Below, in pieces: positions 1,116 to 64,000 of a stretch of DNA of 64,000 nt; within the stretch, counting starts at the first letter, position 1; each line of letters begins with the position of its first letter. The position numbers were made by a program, and so were the translations under genes. Source of the DNA: a virus (taxonomy: Duplodnaviria > Heunggongvirae > Uroviricota > Caudoviricetes); the IMG/VR virus record IMGVR_UViG_2778261510_000005; one strand, given 5' to 3'. Below the pieces are notes generated by a model that was given only the letters and a program-made list of their open reading frames with translations, did not search any database and was not told the DNA's origin.

Positions 1116-1191
1116 TGGTGCCGGTTAACGGACTCGAACCGCTGACATCCTGCTTACAAGGCAGGCGCTCTGCCAACTGAGCTAAACCGGC
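1116..1191 (-). tRNA. tRNA-Thr (anticodon UGU), CCA encoded
   Basis: minus strand GCCGGTT-TA-GCTC..GAGC-G-CCTGC-CTTGTAA-GCAGG-ATGTC-AGCGG-TTCGAGT-CCGTT-AACCGGC-A-CCA; hand-folded cloverleaf, 76 nt. Confidence 0.85.
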
Positions 1192-1193
1192 AT

Positions 1194-1269
1194 TGGCGAT
1201 GGTGGATGGATTTGAACCATCGACCTGTTGATTAACAGTCAACCGCTCTAACCGCTGAGCTACACCATC
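1194..1269 (-). tRNA. tRNA-Asn (anticodon GUU), CCA encoded
   Basis: minus strand GATGGTG-TA-GCTC..GAGC-G-GTTGA-CTGTTAA-TCAAC-AGGTC-GATGG-TTCAAAT-CCATC-CACCATC-G-CCA; 76 nt, 2 nt from tRNA-Thr. Confidence 0.85.
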
Positions 1270-11562: not shown

Positions 11563-11583
11563 GAAAGTCAACAAGTGACTTTC
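11563..11583. promoter_or_regulatory. palindrome GAAAGTCA-N5-TGACTTTC containing the recurrent AACAAGTGACT motif; candidate late promoter/activator site for the head gene
   Basis: perfect 8-bp inverted repeat; same core motif recurs at 47924-47933, 52992-53001 (minus) and 62686-62695 (minus); TAAAAT-like -10 follows. Confidence 0.35.
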
Positions 11584-11642
11584 AATAAAATCTCTTCCGA
11601 AAAGGGATTCACACAAGTGCCTTGTGTTTAAGGAAGAGTAAA

Positions 11643-13349
11643 TTGAGTAACTTACGCGAATACCAGAATCGTATTGCAGATATCGCAAAACGCTCTAAAG
11701 CTGTGCTTGGCTGGGCAAGCACTGCGCAGTTCGGTACTGATAACCAATTCATTAAAGATGATGCCGCGCGTGCCGCATCTATCCTTGAAGCTGCACGTAA
11801 AGACCCGGTTTTTGCGGGTATCTCTGATAATGCCACCGCTCAAATCGCTACAGCGTGGGCAAGTGCACTGGCTGACTACGCCGCAGCACATAAATCTATG
11901 CCGCGTCCGGAAATTCTGGCCTCCTGCCACCAGACGCTGGAAAACTGCCTGATTGAGTCCACCCGCAATAGCATGGATGCCACTAATAAAGCGATGCTGG
12001 AATCCGTCGCAGCAGAGATGATGAGCGTTTCTGACGGTGTTATGCGTCTGCCTTTATTCCTCGCGATGATCCTGCCTGTTCAGTTGGGGGCAGCTACCGC
12101 TGATGCGTGTACCTTCATTCCGGTTACGCGTGACCAGTCCGACATCTATGAAGTCTTTAACGTGGCAGGTTCCTCTTTTGGTTCTTATGCTGCTGGTGAT
12201 GTTCTGGACATGCAATCCGTCGGTGTGTACAGCCAGTTACGTCGCCGCTATGTGCTGGTGGCAAGCTCCGATGGCACCAGCAAAACCGCAACCTTCAAGA
12301 TGGAAGACTTCGAAGGCCAGAATGTACCAATCCGAAAAGGTCGTACTAACATCTACGTTAACCGTATTAAGTCTGTTGTTGATAACGGTTCCGGCAGCCT
12401 ACTTCACTCGTTTACTAATGCTGCTGGTGAGCAAATCACTGTTACCTGCTCTCTGAACTACAACATTGGTCAGATTGCCCTGTCGTTCTCCAAAGCGCCG
12501 GATAAAGGCACTGAGATCGCAATTGAGACGGAAATCAATATTGAAGCCGCTCCTGAGCTGATCCCGCTGATCAACCACGAAATGAAGAAATACACCCTGT
12601 TCCCAAGTCAGTTCGTTATCGCGGCTGAGCACACGGTACAGGCGGCGTATGAAGCACAGCGTGAATTTGGTCTGGACCTGGGTTCCCTACAGTTCCGCAC
12701 CCTGAAGGAATACCTGTCTCATGAACAGGATATGCTGCGTCTTCGCATCATGATCTGGCGCACTCTTGCGACCGACACCTTTGACATCGCTCTGCCGGTT
12801 AACCAGTCCTTTGATGTATGGGCAACCATCATTCGTGGCAAATTCCAGACTGTATATCGCGACATTATTGAGCGCGTTAAATCTTCTGGTGCGATGGGGA
12901 TGTTTGCTGGTGCTGATGCAGCATCTTTCTTCAAACAGTTGCCGAAGGATTTCTTCCAGCCAGCCGAAGACTATATCCAGACTCCGTATGTTCACTACAT
13001 CGGTACCCTGTTCGGTAACGTGAAAGTGTACGAAGTACCTGCTGGTATTTGTAAGAACTTAACGACAGAGAACATTCAGTTCAGCTCGATGGATGTGCTG
13101 TGCTACGTCCGTGATGAAAATCCGGGTAAAGCAGGCTTCGTGACTGGTGATGCTGTCCCGGCCATCCCGTTCCAGCATCCGACCACTCCGGCGCTGGTCA
13201 ACCGTACCACGCTGTGGGGTTCGGCTATCAACGATATGCACCCACGCAACGGCGCTGATTACTTCACTCGTGTAACGCTGACAATGGCCAAAAAAGGCGG
13301 GCTTAACTTCATAAGCGGCGACACGATTGATGCCGGTGACTCTGAGTAA
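11643..13349 (+). CDS. virion head protein, probably major capsid protein (P1 gp23-like position)
   Basis: large ORF immediately after parS as in P1; no in-frame ATG near start; TTG at 11643 lies 6 nt after AGGAAG, alternative TTG at 11622. Confidence 0.45.
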   Translation: MSNLREYQNRIADIAKRSKAVLGWASTAQFGTDNQFIKDDAARAASILEAARKDPVFAGISDNATAQIATAWASALADYAAAHKSMPRPEILASCHQTLENCLIESTRNSMDATNKAMLESVAAEMMSVSDGVMRLPLFLAMILPVQLGAATADACTFIPVTRDQSDIYEVFNVAGSSFGSYAAGDVLDMQSVGVYSQLRRRYVLVASSDGTSKTATFKMEDFEGQNVPIRKGRTNIYVNRIKSVVDNGSGSLLHSFTNAAGEQITVTCSLNYNIGQIALSFSKAPDKGTEIAIETEINIEAAPELIPLINHEMKKYTLFPSQFVIAAEHTVQAAYEAQREFGLDLGSLQFRTLKEYLSHEQDMLRLRIMIWRTLATDTFDIALPVNQSFDVWATIIRGKFQTVYRDIIERVKSSGAMGMFAGADAASFFKQLPKDFFQPAEDYIQTPYVHYIGTLFGNVKVYEVPAGICKNLTTENIQFSSMDVLCYVRDENPGKAGFVTGDAVPAIPFQHPTTPALVNRTTLWGSAINDMHPRNGADYFTRVTLTMAKKGGLNFISGDTIDAGDSE

Positions 13350-15859: not shown

Positions 15860-16441
15860 ATGGCACCTATACCTTATGGGGTTTACAGCCAGGCTGACGG
15901 TGTATCGCCATATCTGAAAGTTACTTTAACGAACTCTCAGTACCAGGTTACCGGATATATCAGCCAGGGAGCGGCAATGAACATGGCCCAGAATTGGGAA
16001 GCGCCGTTTACCGGTATGTCCATGGGATCTGTTTCTGGTGCTCTGGGTGGTTTTGTGCAAGTAGGTACTGAAACAACGTCGGTTGCCCGTTGGAATAGCT
16101 TAATGGTTTGGGAAGGGGGGACTCCGCCGACGTTCACGCTGCCTGTAACTTTCATTGCTTTGAACAATCCATTCATTGAAGTTTCAGGCGCTATCGCCGC
16201 GTTGACAGCCATGATTAGCCCGGAACTAAAAGCGGCCAATGTTGGTGGTCGAATCCCGGAGCGCGTGACGCTAAACATTGGTCGCCGGATCAACATCACC
16301 GATGTCGCCATCCAGGACTTAAGTTTTGATCTCGATGCGCCAAGGGACAGTAATGGATATTTCCTGAAAAACACCGTCAACCTCCAGTTGACCGGTTCTT
16401 CGATATATAACAGCTCCGATATTGTTCGGGCGTTCCAGTAA
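15860..16441 (+). CDS. tail structural protein (tube or tube-associated)
   Basis: 193-aa ORF in the late morphogenesis operon; weak hairpin upstream. Confidence 0.4.
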   Translation: MAPIPYGVYSQADGVSPYLKVTLTNSQYQVTGYISQGAAMNMAQNWEAPFTGMSMGSVSGALGGFVQVGTETTSVARWNSLMVWEGGTPPTFTLPVTFIALNNPFIEVSGAIAALTAMISPELKAANVGGRIPERVTLNIGRRINITDVAIQDLSFDLDAPRDSNGYFLKNTVNLQLTGSSIYNSSDIVRAFQ

Positions 16442-31819: not shown

Positions 31820-31897
31820 CAATCACCCCGTCCGTAGGGCGGGGTGACAAGTTACTTCTCTTACAATGAGGCTTCACAACATTGATTAGGGAAAATC

Positions 31898-32332
31898 ATG
31901 TCTGACGTCTCAACAAACCTCTATAAGAGTCAGTTGTTGGACTATTACTATCAGCGGCGCGCTGAATCGTCCATTAACAAAGGCTCTCGATTTTTAATCA
32001 GCAAGGCCGTTTTCGGTACCAGTTCGCTGGTTACCAAGAAAGGAGATGGCACTTATGAGATTGGAGAACTGCCAAAGGCTTTCGATCTGGCAGAACTGAC
32101 CAGTCAATTTTGCACCATCAACCTCGTGCCAACCTACTCAGGTGGGATAATTACTGTCCGAATGGACCTTGATCAAAGCCAGTTGCAGGAAGGGAAAAAC
32201 TACCCATTCAACACTCTGGTTGTTCTGGATAACGAGAACAAGCCAATCGCCATTATTTGTGTCCAGGAAGACTCGCTGTATGTGGGCAAAACATATACCG
32301 CAGTTATGGCCATAAACACGACTACAGCATAA
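31898..32332 (+). CDS. tail-fibre-associated protein (P1 R-like position)
   Basis: 144-aa ORF directly upstream of the tail fibre gene. Confidence 0.5.
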   Translation: MSDVSTNLYKSQLLDYYYQRRAESSINKGSRFLISKAVFGTSSLVTKKGDGTYEIGELPKAFDLAELTSQFCTINLVPTYSGGIITVRMDLDQSQLQEGKNYPFNTLVVLDNENKPIAIICVQEDSLYVGKTYTAVMAINTTTA

Positions 32333-38658: not shown

Positions 38659-38725
38659 GCAACAAATGACCGGTTGAGAAGTTACTTTGCATACCATTAC
38701 CTCCTGACAACGTAGGAGGGAACTT

Positions 38726-39055
38726 GTGCTTGACACACAGGAATTAGCTCCAGTTGCTATTGCGCTCCTGCTTTCAGTAATTGGTGGGATAGGCACGTTC
38801 CTGATGGATGTCCGAGACGGTCGCCAGTCTGGCAATTTGTTGGGATTGGTTACGGAGATCTTTGTTGCAGTGACAGCTGGCGCGGTGGCGTACCTATTGG
38901 GGCAACACGAGGGCTGGGAGTTATCAATTACGTACTTAATGGTAACGATAGCCAGCAATAACGGTCATGAGGTGATTTCAGGGATGAAACGAGTGAATAT
39001 CGATAGCATTCTGAATGTTCTTACAAGTTTGGTGAAAAAGGGAGGCGGGAAATGA
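38726..39055 (+). CDS. holin-like membrane protein (LydA-like position)
   Basis: GTG start after GGAGGG RBS; two TM segments LAPVAIALLLSVIGGIGTFLM and IFVAVTAGAVAYLL; C-terminal charged tail. Confidence 0.5.
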   Translation: MLDTQELAPVAIALLLSVIGGIGTFLMDVRDGRQSGNLLGLVTEIFVAVTAGAVAYLLGQHEGWELSITYLMVTIASNNGHEVISGMKRVNIDSILNVLTSLVKKGGGK

Positions 39056-47898: not shown

Positions 47899-48031
47899 AA
47901 TGTATATCTTTGAAACGTAGCTAACAAGTGATTTGCATTATCCTGTGCCTTCTAAAGGGATCGAGTCAGTCGGTATTGGCTGTGAATGAGTGTTTGTCCT
48001 GGAGCGTAAAAAATTCGCTTATGAGGTCTTT

Positions 48032-48589
48032 ATGAAGGGAAAAACAGCCGCAGGAGGCGGTGCAATTTGCGCTATCGCGGTGATGATTACCATCGTGATG
48101 GGTAATGGCAATGTGCGAACCAACCAGGCAGGGCTTGAGCTGATTGGTAACGCTGAAGGTTGCCGACGTGATCCATACATGTGCCCGGCGGGGGTATGGA
48201 CTGACGGGATCGGTAATGCACACGGGGTAACGCCGGGTGTGCGAAAAACCGACCAGCAAATCGCCGCTGATTGGGAAAAGAATATCCTGATCGCTGAACG
48301 CTGTATTAATCAGCACTTCCGGGGCAAAGACATGCCCGATAATGCCTTCAGTGCAATGACAAGCGCGGCATTCAATATGGGATGTAATAGCTTACGGACC
48401 TACTACAGCAAAGCGCGAGGCATGCGAGTAGAAACGTCCATCCACAAGTGGGCGCAGAAAGAGGAATGGGTGAATATGTGTAACCATCTCCCTGATTTCG
48501 TGAACAGTAACGGCGTGCCCCTGCGAGGTTTAAAGATTCGCCGTGAAAAAGAACGCCAGCTTTGCCTGACGGGGCTGATCAATGAATAA
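48032..48589 (+). CDS. lyz: SAR-endolysin (T4-lysozyme fold with N-terminal signal-anchor-release domain)
   Basis: 185 aa from ATG 48032; Gly/Ala-rich weakly hydrophobic N-terminus AAGGGAICAIAVMITIVMG; catalytic E...D...T in NAEGCRRDPYMCPAGVWT. Confidence 0.85.
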   Translation: MKGKTAAGGGAICAIAVMITIVMGNGNVRTNQAGLELIGNAEGCRRDPYMCPAGVWTDGIGNAHGVTPGVRKTDQQIAADWEKNILIAERCINQHFRGKDMPDNAFSAMTSAAFNMGCNSLRTYYSKARGMRVETSIHKWAQKEEWVNMCNHLPDFVNSNGVPLRGLKIRREKERQLCLTGLINE

Positions 48590-48875: not shown

Positions 48876-50216
48876 GGTGGTTATCCGGTGCGCCGTAAAA
48901 TCCCGTCCTTCAGGGAGGGGATATAAGGCGTGGTTTTCCACCTAACTGTTTTTGTTTAAAATAGTGGGATGAAGCGACTACAAGCATTTAAATTCCAGTT
49001 AAGACCCGGTGGTCAACAGGAGCGTCAAATGAGGCTCTTTGCCGGAGCTTGTCGTTTCGTTTTCAATCGTGCACTGGCACTTCAGAATGAGAATTATGAG
49101 GCCGGGAATAAATACATCCCTTACACGAAAATGGCTTCCTGGTTGGTTGAGTGGAAAAAAGACACTGAAACCGAATGGCTTAAAGATTCTCCCTCACAGC
49201 CATTGCAGCAGTCACTGAAAGACCTTGAGCGGGCCTACAAAAATTTCTTCCAGAAGCGGGCGGCTTTTCCCCGATTCAAAAAGCGGGGACAGAATGATGC
49301 ATTCCGCTACCCGCAGGGTGTTAAGCTCGACCAGGAAAACAGCCGTATTTTTCTGCCGAAACTTGGCTGGATGCGCTACCGTAACAGCCGGCAGGTCACG
49401 GGGATTGTGAAAAATGTCACTGTCAGCCAGTCCTGCGGTAAATGGTACATCAGTATTCAGACAGAAAGTGAAGTATCCACTCCGGCTCACCCTTCAGCAT
49501 CAATGGTCGGATTGGATGCTGGCGTGGCCAGGCTCGCCACGCTGTCAGATGGCACAGTCTTTGAGCCTGTAAACAGTTTCCAGAAAAACCAGAAAAAGCT
49601 GGCGAGACTTCAGCGCCAGTTAAGCCGCAAGGTCAGATTCAGCAACAACTGGCAGAAGCAGAAACGCAAAATACAGCAACTGCACTCCCGTATCGCAAAT
49701 ATCCGCAGAGACTACCTTCATAAAGTCACAACGATCATCAGCAAAAACCACGCAATGATTGTCATTGAGGATTTGAAGGTTAAACACATGTCAAAGTCAG
49801 CGGCGGGTACGATAAGTCAGCCGGGTCGCAATGTCCGGGCAAAATCAGGTTTAAACCGTTCGATACTGGATCAGGGCTGGTATGAAATGCGCCGCCAGCT
49901 TGCGTACAAGCAGCTCTGGCGTGGCGGTCAGGTGCTTGCTGTTCCGCCAGCGTATACAAGCCAGCGTTGCGCGTACTGTGGTCATACAGCGAAAGAGAAC
50001 CGCCTGTCACAAAGTAAATTCAGATGCCAGGTATGTGGATATACAGCGAACGCCGATGTAAATGGCGCTCGCAACATTTTAGCGGCGGGGCACGCCGTTC
50101 TTGCCTGTGGAGAGATGGTGCAGTCAGGCCGCCCGTTGAAGCAGGAACCCACCGAAATGATTCAGGCGACAGCCTGAACGTAGCAGGAATCCACGCCCGT
50201 CAGGGCGTGGAGGGTG
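48876..50216 (+). mobile_element. IS200/IS605-family tnpB-only element inserted between lysis genes and prohead protease gene (ends approximate)
   Basis: intact tnpB; right-end hairpin CCACGCCC-GTCA-GGGCGTGG at 50191-50210 about 6 bp from the convergent protease stop; no tnpA ORF; left end not resolved. Confidence 0.5.
48969..50177 (+). CDS. tnpB: TnpB RNA-guided endonuclease (OrfB_IS605)
   Basis: 402 aa; RuvC-I GLDAGV, RuvC-II IVIEDL, zinc ribbon CAYCGHT...CQVCGYT, Ruv[14 protein letters not shown]. Confidence 0.85.
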
Positions 50217-52947
<2,731 letters not shown>

Positions 52948-53013
52948 TTAATTAGAATAATTCGCATCGTGTTTGAACGGAATTTAACACTAGTCACTTG
53001 TTAAGGATTACCA

Positions 53014-60500: not shown

Positions 60501-60505
60501 GAACT

Positions 60506-60532
60506 CTCCGGCCTAGGGAGATTAGGCCGGAG
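60506..60532. terminator. perfect 10-bp-stem hairpin between convergent lxc and SIR2 genes
   Basis: CTCCGGCCTA-GGGAGAT-TAGGCCGGAG; no clean U-tract on either side. Confidence 0.5.
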
Positions 60533-60541
60533 ATAAATATA

Positions 60542-61846
60542 CTATATAAACTTAGATATAATATCGTGAATCTGTTGTAGCGGGATATCTTCCATCTCAT
60601 TCTTAATAAGAGAGCGGTTAGATGCTGTCAGTGAAGGCCATTTTGTTTTCCAGGCTAGATATGCTCGCCATGAGCAGCCTGTTTCGTAAGGTTTATTCAT
60701 ATTAGTCATTGAGTGCTCAACCGCATGTATGTATTTTTTCTCAAAATTGGTTCCTTTTACTTCAAATAAACTACCGAAATAAATAAGCCATTTTGCCAAG
60801 TGTTCATACTGCTCCCATGCGCCAGGCTTTTTAGTAAGTTCTATTTTTTTATCTATTATATTACAAAAAACATTTAATACATTTTCATTATTCCAGCTAT
60901 ATCCAGATGATGAAATGGAGGAAATGATATGATAAAAAGAATCCTCTAGCTTCAAGAACTCTATTTTATACTCTCTTCCGTTTTTTATTACCGATTTGAT
61001 TGAGTGCCTCAATTTGTCTTTTATTTTTTTTGCTTCTGGAATTTTATCGTTAAGTTTTCTAAAGAAATCAGATACCTCTGTTTTATCTATAACCCTAACC
61101 CCATAGCAGGAAAAATAGTAATCTTTAATAGGTTGCAATAGTTCCCCTCGGGAAACAAGGAAAATATTGGAGGACATTACGTTGTCCCGTGAAAATACCT
61201 TATATTCATTTATAATAGCCTTTAGGTTCGCGTCACTTAGAGAATAGCCAAGGATAACAATAGTGTTTTCATGTAGAACTGTGCTTAGTTTATTAGAAAA
61301 GTAAGAATTACCATTTATAAATCTGAAATAATCCTCGCTAGTAACAACCATGTCTGATGGGGAGTCTATAGAACCGTGAACATGGTAGACTTTAACCTCA
61401 CAATTATATTTTGGAATTGGCAGGCCGGGGGTGATTGTACACGTTCGATTCTCTCCAGCCAGCTTTTCTGCTAACTTGTCATAATTTGTCGTAATTACTT
61501 TAAATGTGTTTTCTTTGAAAAAGTCTTGAATATATTCAATTGATGGATCAAGTTCGATTGAGGCTATGATTTTCTCAATCTCCTGGTAAATATTTTTCCC
61601 CGAAAGTATAAATTTTAGTGCAATAACCTGAGCAGCCTCTTCAAGGCTAAGGTCTTTTGCTTTTCCATCAGGAAATAATTCCTCTTTGAGTGAGTCACCA
61701 TCCTTCAACAAACCGCACAGTTGCTCCAATAAAGATTGCCAACTTGGGGCTTTATCATCAGAAACAGCCTTTGAAAATCCAGTGCCTGTAAGAAAGCACA
61801 GCCTATGTGTAGCTGCTGCATAGGCAATTTCTATATACTCGCTCAT
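60542..61846 (-). CDS. SIR2-family (ThsA-like SIR2_2) protein with uncharacterised alpha-helical C-terminal domain
   Basis: 434 aa; motif blocks FLTGTGFSKAVSDDKAPSWQSLL, KVITTNYDKL, VYHVHGSIDSP...EDY, IVILGYSLSDANL align to ThsA SIR2 blocks; ATG 61846 with GGAG RBS; coding sequence AT-rich. Confidence 0.8.
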   Translation of the reverse strand: MSEYIEIAYAAATHRLCFLTGTGFSKAVSDDKAPSWQSLLEQLCGLLKDGDSLKEELFPDGKAKDLSLEEAAQVIALKFILSGKNIYQEIEKIIASIELDPSIEYIQDFFKENTFKVITTNYDKLAEKLAGENRTCTITPGLPIPKYNCEVKVYHVHGSIDSPSDMVVTSEDYFRFINGNSYFSNKLSTVLHENTIVILGYSLSDANLKAIINEYKVFSRDNVMSSNIFLVSRGELLQPIKDYYFSCYGVRVIDKTEVSDFFRKLNDKIPEAKKIKDKLRHSIKSVIKNGREYKIEFLKLEDSFYHIISSISSSGYSWNNENVLNVFCNIIDKKIELTKKPGAWEQYEHLAKWLIYFGSLFEVKGTNFEKKYIHAVEHSMTNMNKPYETGCSWRAYLAWKTKWPSLTASNRSLIKNEMEDIPLQQIHDIISKFI

Positions 61847-61902
61847 TACTTACTCCATTTACTTATAGTTCTACGGAGAAGTATACCCTAATGCATTGAC
61901 GT

Positions 61903-62544
61903 TTATAGATAATTTCCTTTTCCTGTTAATACTCCCTTAGGCACCTGTTTTTGTGCCAGCGTTTGGGTTCCGCGAATTATGTTAATCAGAGGGCTTAGTA
62001 ACGATGGTTCCTGGCGTGCCTCAACTTCTCCAGCCATTGCCCTGATGTAGTCTGCGCTGGCAACGTTGTTGTATTCCGTCGCAAAGCAACATAGTAACGT
62101 CAGAACATGCTCTGTCGTTATTTCGCTCCAGTTGATGTTGAAAAATTCATCGCCTTTTTTGTCGTGTTCGGAATCGAAGATGCTTTGGTGGAGGATGTAT
62201 TTGCCGGATTCTTTGCGCGGTAACTTGATCGCTTTCTGGCGTTCCAATTCCTTGTAAATCTGCATTGCCTCAATTAGTACCGGCCTGCCGTTCATGAAGG
62301 GATCGCGCAACCTTACACGCTGGCCAACTCGACCAGTAATAAAGCTGTTTTCCTCTTCCACCAGCACGATAAAACCTTTTTCCTCTTTCTCACGCAATTC
62401 GCGCAGCAACTGGAGTTCCATATCGCGGCGGCGTTCAGGGTAGCTGGTCCGCTCAGCCATTATCAGCTCGTTGTTGATCCATGCAGCAGTCATTGACGCC
62501 GGTTTGCCGACGCTCATCGAAACAACGCATATTTTCTTATCCAT
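61903..62544 (-). CDS. hypothetical 213-aa protein, upstream partner of the SIR2 gene
   Basis: ATG 62544 preceded by AGGGGG; 56-bp spacer to SIR2 gene; ORF-track N-terminal extension to GTG 62691 rejected. Confidence 0.5.
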   Translation of the reverse strand: MDKKICVVSMSVGKPASMTAAWINNELIMAERTSYPERRRDMELQLLRELREKEEKGFIVLVEEENSFITGRVGQRVRLRDPFMNGRPVLIEAMQIYKELERQKAIKLPRKESGKYILHQSIFDSEHDKKGDEFFNINWSEITTEHVLTLLCCFATEYNNVASADYIRAMAGEVEARQEPSLLSPLINIIRGTQTLAQKQVPKGVLTGKGNYL

Positions 62545-62804
62545 AGCGCCCCCTACAAAAAAGAAAAGCCACCAGCGGCGGCTTAGCAATACAACTGAAG
62601 GTAGCGCCCGGTACTCAGACTGTGCCGTCCATGGAATATTTGAAAAGGGATCCATCCGTACCGGGCGTGTGATGATTCTGACTGAAGTCACTTGTCAGTT
62701 GTCAATTATTTATTATTAAAAATAATATATTTATTAGTGCATACAAATAAGGCACTAAGTGTGCACATTGCAACCTCAGAGAGGAAACATTCAACTAGAA
62801 TGTT

Positions 62805-62837
62805 ATTGCTCTAATAAATTTGATTTATTAGAGCAAA
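62805..62837. promoter_or_regulatory. head-to-head pair of C1-repressor-type operators
   Basis: ATTGCTCTAATAAATTT (62805-62821, 17/17) overlapping by 1 nt an inverted copy TGATTTATTAGAGCAAA (62821-62837). Confidence 0.6.
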
Positions 62838-62914
62838 TAAACTACTATTGGACGCCAGACTATTGATCTTCCTGTTGTTCAGGCTTATAGTTCCTACGTC
62901 GTAGCAAATTCTGC

Positions 62915-63125
62915 GACCGGGTTTAGCAGCCTGAATGTACATGCGGACAACCGCAGATTTCCGATATTGCGGTATTTTTATGTCCGTAAAACCGCGTTAC
63001 GCCCGAATTATGGTGGGGCGTGATGGGGAGGCTTCGGCCTGCTGGTTTCATGTACGCCAGTCTGCTAACCCCGTCACGTCCTGCCACCCGTTTAGCAGCG
63101 GGTAGCAGGTTGTTAAACCTGTACA
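62915..63125 (+). ncRNA. second c4-like antisense RNA region with switched recognition motifs (boundaries approximate)
   Basis: collinear with 21960-22160 (minus); every GACAG in copy 1 replaced by AGCAG, every GATTGTG by GTACATG, on both partner strands. Confidence 0.45.
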
Positions 63126-63138
63126 TGAGGCCGTAACT

Positions 63139-63360
63139 ATGGTTAATGCCAATCCTTGCGCACGCCCTGAATTTATCTGGCGCTTTTACTCCTGCCAGAA
63201 ACGTCACTATCACTTCGTTATCGCACCAACAGAAGATGAGGCACGTTCTCAGCTTCCGGATGCTCCCTGTATTTTCTCTGCCCGCTTTTCTACCGATTCG
63301 CGCAATTCTCTCAGTTACTGGTGCCTCCCTGTTAACGCTTCGGCTCAGGAGGGACTATGA
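63139..63360 (+). CDS. Icd paralog, 73 aa
   Basis: MVNANPCARPEFIWRFYSC..., about 80 percent identical to the copy at 21719..21940. Confidence 0.6.
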   Translation: MVNANPCARPEFIWRFYSCQKRHYHFVIAPTEDEARSQLPDAPCIFSARFSTDSRNSLSYWCLPVNASAQEGL

Positions 63361-64000
63361 GAACGTCATTAGTCACCCGTGAAGAGATGATCGAGGCAAT
63401 TGAACAGCACACTGCCTGTATCAGTACCAGGGATATACCAGGCGTTATTGCCAACTACTTCATGATCACCAAACAACTTTACCGGAGAAAGGACAAACAC
63501 GCGGTTCACCGTATCCTGTTGTCTGATATCCGCGAATACCTGCTCGAACAGGGGCATCTGAATTACGCAACCGTCGCAGCCGAAGCACGCAAGGAGGCAC
63601 ACAGAATGAAAGCAACTAACGTTAAATCAGAAAAAATTCATGCACCTTCAGTTCAGGAATCGGAGCTGGTGGTTGTTCAAAATCAGCCGGATGAAATTCC
63701 CGTTCTGGAATGGCAGGGAGTACGTGTCGTAACAACCGAAACTCTTGCTAAGGGGTACGGAACCGATGAAGGCAATATTCGTAAAAATTTGTCTTGCAAC
63801 TCCGATCGCTTTGAAGAAGGTAAACACTACTTTCTTTTAACTGGTTCAAAATTAAGAGAATTTAAGAACAGAGTTACTTTTAGTAACTCTGTTGGTAAGA
63901 ACGCCAGAAACCTCACTCTCTGGACGGAACGCGGCGCAGCCCGCCACGCTAAAATGATCGAAACCGATCAGGCATGGGCATTCTTTGAAAAACTGGAAGA
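63357..64000 (+). CDS. second antirepressor, 5' 214 codons; gene runs off the window end
   Basis: ATGA overlap with icd paralog, AGGAGG RBS; N-terminal 90 aa paralogous to Ant at 20685, then a different C-terminal domain. Confidence 0.65.
   Translation, partial: MRTSLVTREEMIEAIEQHTACISTRDIPGVIANYFMITKQLYRRKDKHAVHRILLSDIREYLLEQGHLNYATVAAEARKEAHRMKATNVKSEKIHAPSVQESELVVVQNQPDEIPVLEWQGVRVVTTETLAKGYGTDEGNIRKNLSCNSDRFEEGKHYFLLTGSKLREFKNRVTFSNSVGKNARNLTLWTERGAARHAKMIETDQAWAFFEKLE

What the first reader, a model, noticed from the sequence alone, without database searches (positions are those of the whole stretch)
11563..11583. Recurrent AACAAGTGA(C/T)T motif upstream of head, portal, endolysin and the SIR2 operon
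The same 10-11 nt core occurs at 11570-11580 (plus, before the head gene, within a perfect palindrome GAAAGTCA-N5-TGACTTTC), 47924-47933 (plus, before lyz), 52992-53001 (minus sense, about 50 bp before the portal gene) and 62686-62695 (minus sense, before the SIR2 partner gene). Each is followed by an A/T-rich -10-like hexamer. This fits a dedicated late-promoter or activator-binding element, and would imply the SIR2 operon is switched on with late genes.
Basis: seen in the sequence. Interest (0 to 1): 0.45.

Follow-up and report, generated by a model that had tools for sequence, protein, structure and literature searches.

The report
Known phage P1 late promoters
The repeated motif is the already described late-gene promoter of phage P1 (the site used by the phage activator Lpa), so it is ordinary. 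One side point is new: in this P1-like prophage a SIR2 defence-type gene lies downstream of one such promoter, behind a conserved terminator-containing leader.

Summary
The 10-mer ACAAGTGAYT occurs exactly four times, at the stated coordinates, against 0.19 expected by chance. The window is a P1/P7-like plasmid prophage (98-99.5% identical to P1/P7). The four sites are 19/19 identical to late promoters annotated in P1 record NC_005856: LP23, LPlyz, LPpro and LPmat. Each has a 9-bp inverted repeat AAGTnACTT centred near -22, then 4 nt, then a -10 hexamer. The published mechanism is activation by phage protein Lpa together with host SspA.

A 71%-identical Cronobacter phage that encodes an Lpa orthologue has the motif upstream of orthologous genes.

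The "late promoter / activator site" reading is therefore correct, but already known. The extended palindrome at LP23 is not conserved.

The "SIR2 partner gene" is the core P1 gene mat. The SIR2 gene is single-gene cargo in a variable hot spot downstream of mat, where P1 has res/mod and SJ46 has a CapRel-like gene. It has no clear promoter of its own, so co-transcription from LPmat is plausible. However, a conserved structured leader with an intrinsic terminator lies between LPmat and mat, so late expression of SIR2 is inferred, not shown.

The parts
11571..11591 (+). LP23: late promoter of gene 23 (major head protein). It reads AC + box AAGTGACTT (11573-11581) + tcaa + -10 TAAAAT (11586-11591). 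Gene 23 starts at TTG 11643.
   Evidence: 19/19 identical to 'predicted late promoter LP23' of NC_005856, and also annotated in P7. Geometry. An orthologous site lies upstream of JK004_19.
11563..11583 (.). Extended palindrome GAAAGTCA-N5-TGACTTTC around LP23. Its centre (11573) is 4 bp away from the centre of the -22 box (11577).
   Evidence: Seen in sequence. The left arm is not kept in JK004, which reads ctgtttgtcaacAAGTGACTTTC. No other late promoter has such an extension. It is probably incidental.
23647..23667 (+). LPsit: late promoter upstream of pmgC (tail tube and sit operon). It reads acAAATGACAA ctcg TAGAAT.
   Evidence: 1 mismatch to P1 LPsit. It lies 31 nt before the pmgC ATG at 23699.
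31847..31867 (+). LPs (Ps): late promoter of the tail-fibre operon R-S-U. It reads acAAGTTACTT ctct TACAAT.
   Evidence: 1 mismatch to P1 LPs. It lies 30 nt before the R ATG at 31898. An orthologue lies upstream of JK004_4.
38677..38697 (+). LPdar: late promoter of the lydA-lydB-hdf-darA operon. It reads agAAGTTACTT tgca TACCAT.
   Evidence: 19/19 identical to P1 LPdar. It lies 28 nt before the lydA GTG at 38726.
47924..47944 (+). LPlyz: late promoter of the endolysin gene lyz. It reads acAAGTGATTT gcat TATCCT.
   Evidence: 19/19 identical to P1 LPlyz. It lies 87 nt before the lyz ATG at 48032. A weaker orthologue lies upstream of JK004_113.
52981..53001 (-). LPpro: late promoter of the prt (portal)-pro operon. 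It reads acAAGTGACTA gtgt TAAATT.
   Evidence: 19/19 identical to P1 LPpro. It lies 42 nt before the prt TTG at 52938. An orthologue lies upstream of JK004_108.
62675..62695 (-). LPmat: late promoter of mat. It reads acAAGTGACTT cagt CAGAAT. It overlaps a sigma-70-like promoter (Pmat in the P1 record): TTGACA at 62705-62700, 19-nt spacer, the same -10.
   Evidence: 19/19 identical to P1 'late promoter LPmat; former LP2'. The TTGACA / 19 nt / CAGAAT arrangement comes. It is conserved in 78 of 80 IMG/VR P1-like contigs and in the JK004 clade.
62545..62668 (-). Structured leader between LPmat and mat. It has a 9-bp closing stem GCCCGGUAC/GUACCGGGC, two inner hairpins, and an intrinsic terminator (62584-62566 plus a U-run).
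   Evidence: Terminator scan, single-sequence fold, and alignments with JK004 and L173-L176. RNAalifold finds 25 pairs, 3 of them with changes on both sides. No Rfam family matches.
61903..62544 (-). mat (maturation control), 213 aa. The P1 record starts it 111 nt further upstream (equivalent to window 62655; 250 aa), but that extension is not conserved as coding sequence.
   Evidence: Homologous to P1 mat. PGAP and the JK004 annotation call a 642-nt gene. Frame-breaking indels occur between the two ATGs in relatives.
60542..61846 (-). SIR2-family gene (434 aa). It is single-gene cargo 56 nt downstream of mat on the same strand, in the position where P1 has res/mod.
   Evidence: Pfam SIR2_2, E 2e-23. 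PADLOC PDC-S25 / ThsA / LmuA-like. PDB matches to DSR2 and ThsA SIR2 domains, E 1e-8 to 1e-9. Present in at least 65 E. coli P1-like plasmids and in no record of the phage collection.
60505..60533 (-). Terminator-like hairpin (11 pairs) just after the SIR2 stop codon, between the convergent SIR2 and lxc genes. It is the likely end of a mat-SIR2 transcript.
   Evidence: Terminator scan and the sequence itself.

Best explanation
The motif is the upstream element of phage P1's Lpa-dependent late promoters. Each promoter has a 9-bp inverted repeat AAGTnACTT centred near -22, preceded by a conserved AC, followed by 4 nt and then a sigma-70-type -10 hexamer (TAnaaT). The box occupies the place of a usual -35 hexamer; LPmat additionally overlaps a TTGACA at 19-nt spacing.

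According to the literature, the early phage protein Lpa (gp10) binds this box. Together with host SspA bound to RNA polymerase, it switches on the morphogenesis and lysis operons late in lytic growth.

The window is a P1/P7-like plasmid prophage and carries seven such promoters: LP23, LPsit, LPs, LPdar, LPlyz, LPpro and LPmat. The activator gene lpa lies outside the window.

LPmat drives mat through a roughly 125-nt structured leader that ends in an intrinsic terminator. The SIR2 cargo gene downstream of mat would be made late only to the extent that transcription reads through that terminator.

Shown here: sequence identity to the annotated P1 promoters, enrichment, position and orientation, and conservation in a 71%-identical relative that has lpa. 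Taken from the literature: Lpa binding and SspA dependence. Inferred: co-transcription of mat and SIR2, and the regulatory role of the leader.
For: The window is 98-99.5% identical to P1 and P7.

The four reported sites and LPdar are 19/19 identical to late promoters annotated in NC_005856. LPs and LPsit differ by 1 nt each.

Enrichment: ACAAGTGAYT 4 observed against 0.19 expected; AAGTNACTT 7 against 0.82; box plus -10 pattern 5-6 against 0.2-0.6.

A weight matrix built only from three P1 late promoters that lie outside the window's span ranks LPpro, LPlyz, LP23 and LPmat at ranks 1, 2, 4 and 6 of 128,000 positions.

All seven promoters are intergenic, correctly oriented, and 28-130 nt before a start codon.

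Cronobacter phage JK004 (71.6% identical) encodes an Lpa orthologue (PF25716, E 4e-41; 67% identity). It has the motif upstream of the orthologues of 23, prt, R, 26, pacA, mat and lyz, with 6 hits of at least 15 bits against 0.65 in shuffles.

The consensus over 17 sites is ACAAGTGACTT-N4-TAnaaT.

[quoted passage not shown] Lpa is a sequence-specific DNA-binding activator that acts with SspA (PMC1891329). lyz transcription depends on Lpa (PMC8198154).

A SIR2-bearing P1-like plasmid, pO26_98E11_1, has an lpa 99.3% identical to P1's, together with exact LPmat and LPpac.
Against: lpa is not in the window, so activator and sites could not be shown together in this exact molecule.

No transcription-start or expression data for this element were available, and a search for P1 start-site mapping found nothing.

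LP23 is labelled 'predicted' in the P1 record.

Three perfect AAGTnACTT boxes lie inside genes without a good -10, so the box alone does not define a promoter.

The primary papers (Lehnherr et al. 1991/1992; Hansen et al. 2003; Lobocka et al. 2004) were not held in the library. The mechanism is therefore cited second-hand.
Confidence: 0.95

Rival explanations
1. The SIR2 gene is a genuine late gene. It is co-transcribed with mat from LPmat, with no independent expression, so the NADase-type protein is made only during lytic growth of the P1-like phage rather than in the lysogen.
For: It is on the same strand as mat. The gap is 56 nt, contains a Shine-Dalgarno sequence and has no terminator. 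Only 8/12 sigma-70 candidates occur inside mat or in the gap. Other co-oriented cargo at this site has longer spacers of about 90-135 nt, in which promoter-like hexamers can be read by eye. A terminator follows SIR2. The 57-nt offset is identical in all 14 IMG/VR contigs that carry SIR2.
Against: A conserved intrinsic terminator lies between LPmat and mat. A CapRel-like gene sits in the same position and orientation on the SJ46-length contig L036, and CapRel-SJ46 is functional from its native promoter without phage (PMC9712102). Prophage defence genes are normally needed in the lysogen (general knowledge). A weak candidate promoter exists, with TATACT at 61885-61880. No expression data are available.
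Confidence: 0.3
2. The recurrence is chance, or a by-product of shared ancestry of short sequence, with no regulatory role.
For: The box is short. With 2 mismatches, the 11-mer is no more frequent than in shuffles (32 observed against 33.8 expected). Three perfect boxes lie inside genes.
Against: Exact matches are 20-fold enriched. All sites are intergenic and correctly oriented, with fixed spacing to a -10. The sites are conserved at orthologous positions in a 71%-identical genome whose flanks have diverged. They are annotated and described as functional in P1.
Confidence: 0.01
3. The functional unit at LP23 is the 21-bp palindrome GAAAGTCA-N5-TGACTTTC, acting for example as a hairpin or a second protein site linked to the neighbouring parS, rather than the -22 box.
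For: It is a perfect 8+8 inverted repeat. It lies about 40 bp downstream of the parS boxes. It is identical in P1 and P7.
Against: Its centre is 4 bp off the box centre. The left arm is not conserved in JK004, whereas the box and the -10 are. None of the other 10 P1 late promoters has it. It is A/T-rich and not followed by a T-run, so it does not resemble a terminator.
Confidence: 0.04

Closest known systems
Bacteriophage P1 late promoters (LPs/Ps, LPlyz, LPdar, LPpro, LPmat, LP23, LPsit, LP26, LPpmgL, LPhot, LPpac) activated by Lpa (gp10) with host SspA
   Same: The sequences are identical or differ by 1 nt. The geometry is the same: 9-bp inverted repeat at -22, 4-nt spacer, -10 hexamer. The downstream genes are the same, as is the genome type (Punavirus-like plasmid prophage).
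   Different: Nothing about the promoters themselves differs. The only difference is downstream of LPmat, where this element carries a SIR2 gene and P1 carries the convergent res/mod genes.
Phage Mu late promoters activated by protein C, and P2/P4 late promoters activated by Ogr/Delta (comparison from my own knowledge, not tested here)
   Same: A phage-encoded activator binds a dyad-symmetric site upstream of a sigma-70 -10 at promoters that lack a good -35, and this turns on morphogenesis and lysis operons late.
   Different: The activator families and the site positions differ: the Mu C and P2 Ogr sites lie further upstream, whereas the P1 box is centred at -22 inside the spacer/-35 zone. 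P1 additionally needs host SspA. Lpa has its own Pfam family, PF25716.
Lambda PR'-tR' with Q antitermination (relevant only to the LPmat leader; from my own knowledge plus PMC10695390)
   Same: A late promoter is followed closely by an intrinsic terminator that must be overcome before the downstream genes are transcribed.
   Different: No P1 antiterminator has been demonstrated (PMC10695390). Only LPmat was seen here to have this arrangement. The leader contains a conserved folded domain upstream of the terminator, which lambda's 6S RNA region does not resemble.

Membership tests
P1 Lpa-dependent late promoter | 9-bp inverted repeat AAGTnACTT (the '-22 region') | tested here: met
   Present, perfect or with 1-2 substitutions, at all 7 sites. 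The pattern is 8.5-fold enriched.
P1 Lpa-dependent late promoter | sigma-70-type -10 hexamer 4 nt downstream of the box, with the box taking the place of a canonical -35 | tested here: met
   All 7 sites have a 4-nt spacer and a TAnnnT or CAGAAT hexamer. LPmat additionally overlaps a TTGACA at 19-nt spacing, annotated as Pmat in P1.
P1 Lpa-dependent late promoter | Location upstream of, and pointing into, late (head, tail, lysis, maturation) operons | tested here: met
   The downstream genes are 23, pmgC, R, lydA, lyz, prt and mat, 28-130 nt away on the same strand (with gene identities).
P1 Lpa-dependent late promoter | Orthology to promoters annotated or characterised in P1 | tested here: met
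   19/19 identity for LP23, LPlyz, LPpro, LPmat and LPdar; 18/19 for LPs and LPsit.
P1 Lpa-dependent late promoter | The activator gene lpa (PF25716) is in the same genome | tested here: inconclusive
   No lpa is in the window (tblastn), because its expected position lies outside the window. It is present in the SIR2-bearing sister plasmid pO26_98E11_1 (99.3% identical) and in JK004 (67% identical).
P1 Lpa-dependent late promoter | Lpa- and SspA-dependent transcription starting late in lytic growth | not testable with these tools
   This needs wet-lab work. It is known for P1 from the literature.
Two-gene 'SIR2 operon' / SIR2 defence system with a partner | The upstream gene is a dedicated partner that co-occurs with the SIR2 gene | tested here: not met
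   The upstream gene is mat, which is present in P1, P7, JK004 and 80 IMG/VR contigs with at least 10 different downstream genes. SIR2 follows it in only 14 of 74 contigs with downstream data.
SIR2-domain NADase-type defence protein | SIR2_2 domain related to those of ThsA / DSR2 | tested here: met
   Pfam PF13289, E 2e-23. PADLOC PDC-S25 and ThsA. PDB DSR2 and ThsA, E 1e-8 to 1e-9. Catalytic residues and defence activity were not tested.

The most novel reading that the evidence does not exclude
LPmat is not a simple late promoter. Its transcript begins with a conserved, folded leader of about 125 nt that ends in an intrinsic terminator, so it may act as an unrecognised late attenuator, antitermination target or small RNA in P1-like phages. 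This element would gate mat and, through it, whatever defence cargo has been inserted co-directionally downstream (SIR2 here). A SIR2 NADase-type protein would then be produced conditionally during the phage's own late phase.
Probability: 0.25. Interest if true: 0.5.

Novelty: already known. Interest (0 to 1): 0.12.

Why it matters
For the motif itself, very little: it rediscovers a promoter class described for P1 and annotated in the P1 and P7 GenBank records. Its practical value is for annotation.

The side findings could matter more.
- The site downstream of mat is a cargo hot spot holding SIR2, a CapRel-like gene, type III restriction, PIN and GNAT genes in different P1-like elements.
- The conserved terminator-containing leader after LPmat suggests an undescribed control step for mat and for co-oriented cargo.
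- The P1 reference start codon of mat is probably wrong.

Tried and rejected
- The primary P1 genome paper (PMC523184) is not held in the library, so the mechanism is cited from later open-access papers.
- I searched for published P1 transcription-start maps and found nothing useful. A search for P1-like / phage-plasmid / SIR2 found no paper describing this gene.
- I looked for divergent Lpa loci to test co-variation of activator and box. The genome-contig scan gave 3 loci. The viral-contig scan returned only copies 99-100% identical. I abandoned this route and used JK004 instead.
- I looked for divergent mat leaders in plasmids. Nearly all hits are at least 95% identical.
- Rfam has no family for the LPmat leader. 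The only hits are chance-level, E 0.4-0.6.
- I rejected a divergent late promoter for darB sharing the LPpro box, by analogy with LP26/LPpmgL in P1. The + strand hexamer AGGATT is poor and ends 5 nt before the darB ATG (and sequence).
- The extra boxes at 15918 and 28765 have no -10 on either strand. The box at 19673 has only CAGCAT. I do not claim any of them as promoters.
- ParB box and C1 operator identities for the motif were rejected by eye against the annotated P1 sites.

Full report
**Observation.** The sequence at 11563-11583 reads GAAAGTCAACAAGTGACTTTC, as the finding states. The shared 10-mer ACAAGTGAYT occurs exactly four times in the 64-kb window, at 11571-11580 (+), 47924-47933 (+), 52992-53001 (-) and 62686-62695 (-). 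Dinucleotide-preserving shuffles give 0.19 on average, and none of 100 reached four. The 11-mer with the leading A matches three times against 0.11 expected; the fourth site begins with G. Once two mismatches are allowed the pattern is no commoner than chance (32 against 33.8), so the signal lies in the near-exact copies.

**Identity of the window.** The region around the first site is 98-99.5% identical to phages P1 and P7. The window runs in reverse orientation relative to P1 record NC_005856, from about P1 coordinate 70 kb down past mat. That record and the P7 record annotate the first site as 'predicted late promoter LP23', with a '-22 region' and a -10 signal.

I read the whole P1 annotation. 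It lists eleven late promoters: LPmat, LPpro, LPlyz, LPdar, LPs, LPsit, LP23, LP26, LPpmgL, LPhot and LPpac. I extracted each 19-nt promoter and searched the window.
- The four sites of the finding are 19/19 identical to LP23, LPlyz, LPpro and LPmat.
- LPdar is also present unchanged, at 38679-38697.
- LPs (31849-31867) and LPsit (23649-23667) are present with one substitution each.
- The other four P1 late promoters lie in the part of the genome that the window does not cover.

**Anatomy.** Every site has a 9-bp inverted repeat AAGTnACTT, four bases, and then a -10 hexamer (TAAAAT, TAGAAT, TACAAT, TACCAT, TATCCT, TAAATT or CAGAAT). The hexamer ends 28-130 nt before the start codon of a late gene on the same strand: 23, pmgC, R, lydA, lyz, prt or mat. 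Across ten P1 sites and seven sites from a diverged relative, the consensus is ACAAGTGACTT-N4-TAnaaT. The two bases AC just upstream of the box carry as much information as the box itself. The palindromic box alone is 8.5-fold enriched (7 against 0.82), and box-plus-hexamer patterns are enriched 10- to 30-fold.

**Independent tests.**
- A weight matrix built only from three P1 late promoters outside the window's span (LP26, LPpmgL, LPpac) places LPpro, LPlyz, LP23 and LPmat at ranks 1, 2, 4 and 6 among all positions on both strands. LPs is at rank 10.
- Cronobacter phage JK004 is only 71.6% identical in the gene 23 region. It encodes an orthologue of the activator Lpa next to pacA (Pfam PF25716, E 4e-41; 67% identity). 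Scanning its 93.8-kb genome gives six hits of at least 15 bits against 0.65 in shuffles. These hits, plus a weaker one, lie directly upstream of the orthologues of mat, 23, prt, R, 26, pacA and lyz. The flanks have diverged while the box and the -10 have not.

**Mechanism, from the literature.**
- PMC1891329 summarises Hansen et al.: Lpa (gp10) is a sequence-specific DNA-binding activator thought to act through host SspA, which contacts RNA polymerase; SspA itself does not appear to bind late-promoter DNA.
- PMC8198154 treats lyz as Lpa-dependent.

The primary papers were not available. The window does not contain lpa, as expected from its span. A sister plasmid that carries the same SIR2 gene, pO26_98E11_1, has an lpa 99.3% identical to P1's, together with exact copies of LPmat and LPpac.

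**The extended palindrome at LP23.** The 8+8 palindrome is real, but its centre is 4 bp from the centre of the -22 box. No other late promoter has one. In JK004 the left arm is changed (ctgtttgtcaacAAGTGACTTTC) while the box and the -10 are kept. I regard it as incidental.

**The 'SIR2 operon'.** The gene immediately downstream of the fourth site is not a SIR2 partner. It is mat (maturation control), a core P1 gene reported as essential from amber mutants (PMC10695390).

The SIR2 gene (60542-61846, minus strand, 434 aa) matches Pfam SIR2_2 at E 2e-23. It resembles the SIR2 domains of PDC-S25, ThsA and DSR2. It lies 56 nt after mat on the same strand, in the place where P1 has the convergent res and mod genes. 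The same gene is present in at least 65 E. coli P1-like plasmids, but in none of the records of the phage collection.

In 80 IMG/VR contigs that encode Mat, the position downstream of mat holds at least ten unrelated genes:
- SIR2: 14 contigs, always 57 nt downstream and co-oriented.
- A 376-aa RelA_SpoT protein: 12 contigs, co-oriented. One of these contigs (L036) has the exact length of phage SJ46, so this is probably CapRel-SJ46.
- A GNAT acetyltransferase: 10 contigs.
- Type III res: 9 contigs, opposite strand.
- A PIN protein, a YaaC-like protein and others.

This is therefore a cargo hot spot, and SIR2 is single-gene cargo.

**Is SIR2 a late gene?**

In favour:
- The 56-nt gap contains no terminator.
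- Only 8-of-12 sigma-70 candidates occur within mat or the gap. Other co-oriented cargo has longer spacers, in which promoter-like hexamers can be read by eye.
- A strong hairpin follows the SIR2 stop codon.

Against:
- Between LPmat and mat lies a terminator-like hairpin with a T-run, at 62584-62566.

Late co-transcription is therefore plausible but unproven. I put it at about 0.3 as the sole mode of expression.

**The LPmat leader.** The P1 record starts mat at an ATG 20 nt after the -10 (window 62655), giving 250 aa. PGAP and the JK004 annotators start it 111 nt later (window 62544), giving 213 aa. Relatives differ by 1-nt indels in a G-run, and JK004 by a net +8 nt, between the two ATGs. 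The upstream extension therefore cannot be conserved coding sequence.

The interval is instead a leader of about 125 nt. Six distinct leader types (window, JK004, L173-L176) share four features:
- a 9-bp closing stem, in which three pairs change on both sides while staying paired (G-C/A-U, U-A/C-G, A-U/G-C);
- two inner hairpins;
- an intrinsic terminator whose loop varies but whose stem and U-run persist;
- a Shine-Dalgarno sequence and the ATG of the 213-aa Mat.

Rfam has no matching family, and the P1 record annotates nothing there. PMC10695390 notes that no P1 antiterminator has been shown experimentally, although there are indications that one exists. With only six sequences from a few lineages, the covariation is suggestive rather than statistically secure.

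**Verdict.** The main interpretation (late promoter / activator site) is correct but already known and already annotated in the reference genomes. The SIR2 corollary rests on a misread gene and remains an inference. The only possibly new items are by-products: the structured, terminator-containing LPmat leader, the probable mis-annotation of the P1 mat start, and the cargo hot spot downstream of mat.

Noticed in passing
window 62545-62668 (- strand): There is a conserved structured leader with an intrinsic terminator (62584-62566) between LPmat and mat. Three stem pairs covary across six leader types. No Rfam family matches, and the P1 record annotates nothing here. The P1 mat start codon (equivalent to window 62655) is probably wrong; the real start is likely ATG 62544 (213 aa).
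   Followed up: partly
window 60505-61902; loci L010-L089: The position downstream of mat is a cargo hot spot in P1-like elements. Different contigs hold SIR2, a RelA_SpoT protein resembling CapRel-SJ46, a GNAT acetyltransferase, type III res, a PIN protein, a YaaC-like protein and others. About half of these genes are co-oriented with mat.
   Followed up: partly
window 62801-64000 (+ strand): A second immI-like immunity module sits where P1 has ref. It comprises a C1-operator-like palindrome (about 62801-62840), c4-a1b1 (62885-62937), a C4 antisense RNA (63006-63091), an icd-like ORF (63139-63360), and an ant-like ORF with an ORF6N domain running off the window end. The canonical C4 is at 21988-22195 (-). 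The same layout occurs in plasmid pO26_98E11_1.
   Followed up: partly
window 48969-50177 (+): A 402-aa TnpB (IS605 OrfB, with HTH_OrfB_IS605, OrfB_IS605 and Cas12f1-like TNB domains) is inserted between lydD and pro. It is co-oriented with the LPlyz-driven lysis operon and is absent from P1.
   Followed up: no
window 19673-19691 (+): A perfect box AAGTGACTT lies inside the 5' end of repL. It is followed at the canonical spacing by CAGCAT and points antisense into kilA. It is identical in P1 but not annotated there. It could be a weak twelfth Lpa site or chance. Two further perfect boxes, at 15918 (pmgG) and 28765 (sit), have no -10.
   Followed up: partly
window 11592-11645 (+): In the leader of gene 23, CTCTTCC (11592-11598) can pair with GGAAGAG (11632-11638), which covers the Shine-Dalgarno sequence. 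An inner hairpin CACAAG-TGC-CTTGTG is also present. Together these could form a translational control structure.
   Followed up: no
window 1119-1269 (-): Two tRNA genes are found by Rfam. By position they correspond to P1 trnA and trnT, which marks the window start at about P1 coordinate 69.5-70 kb.
   Followed up: no
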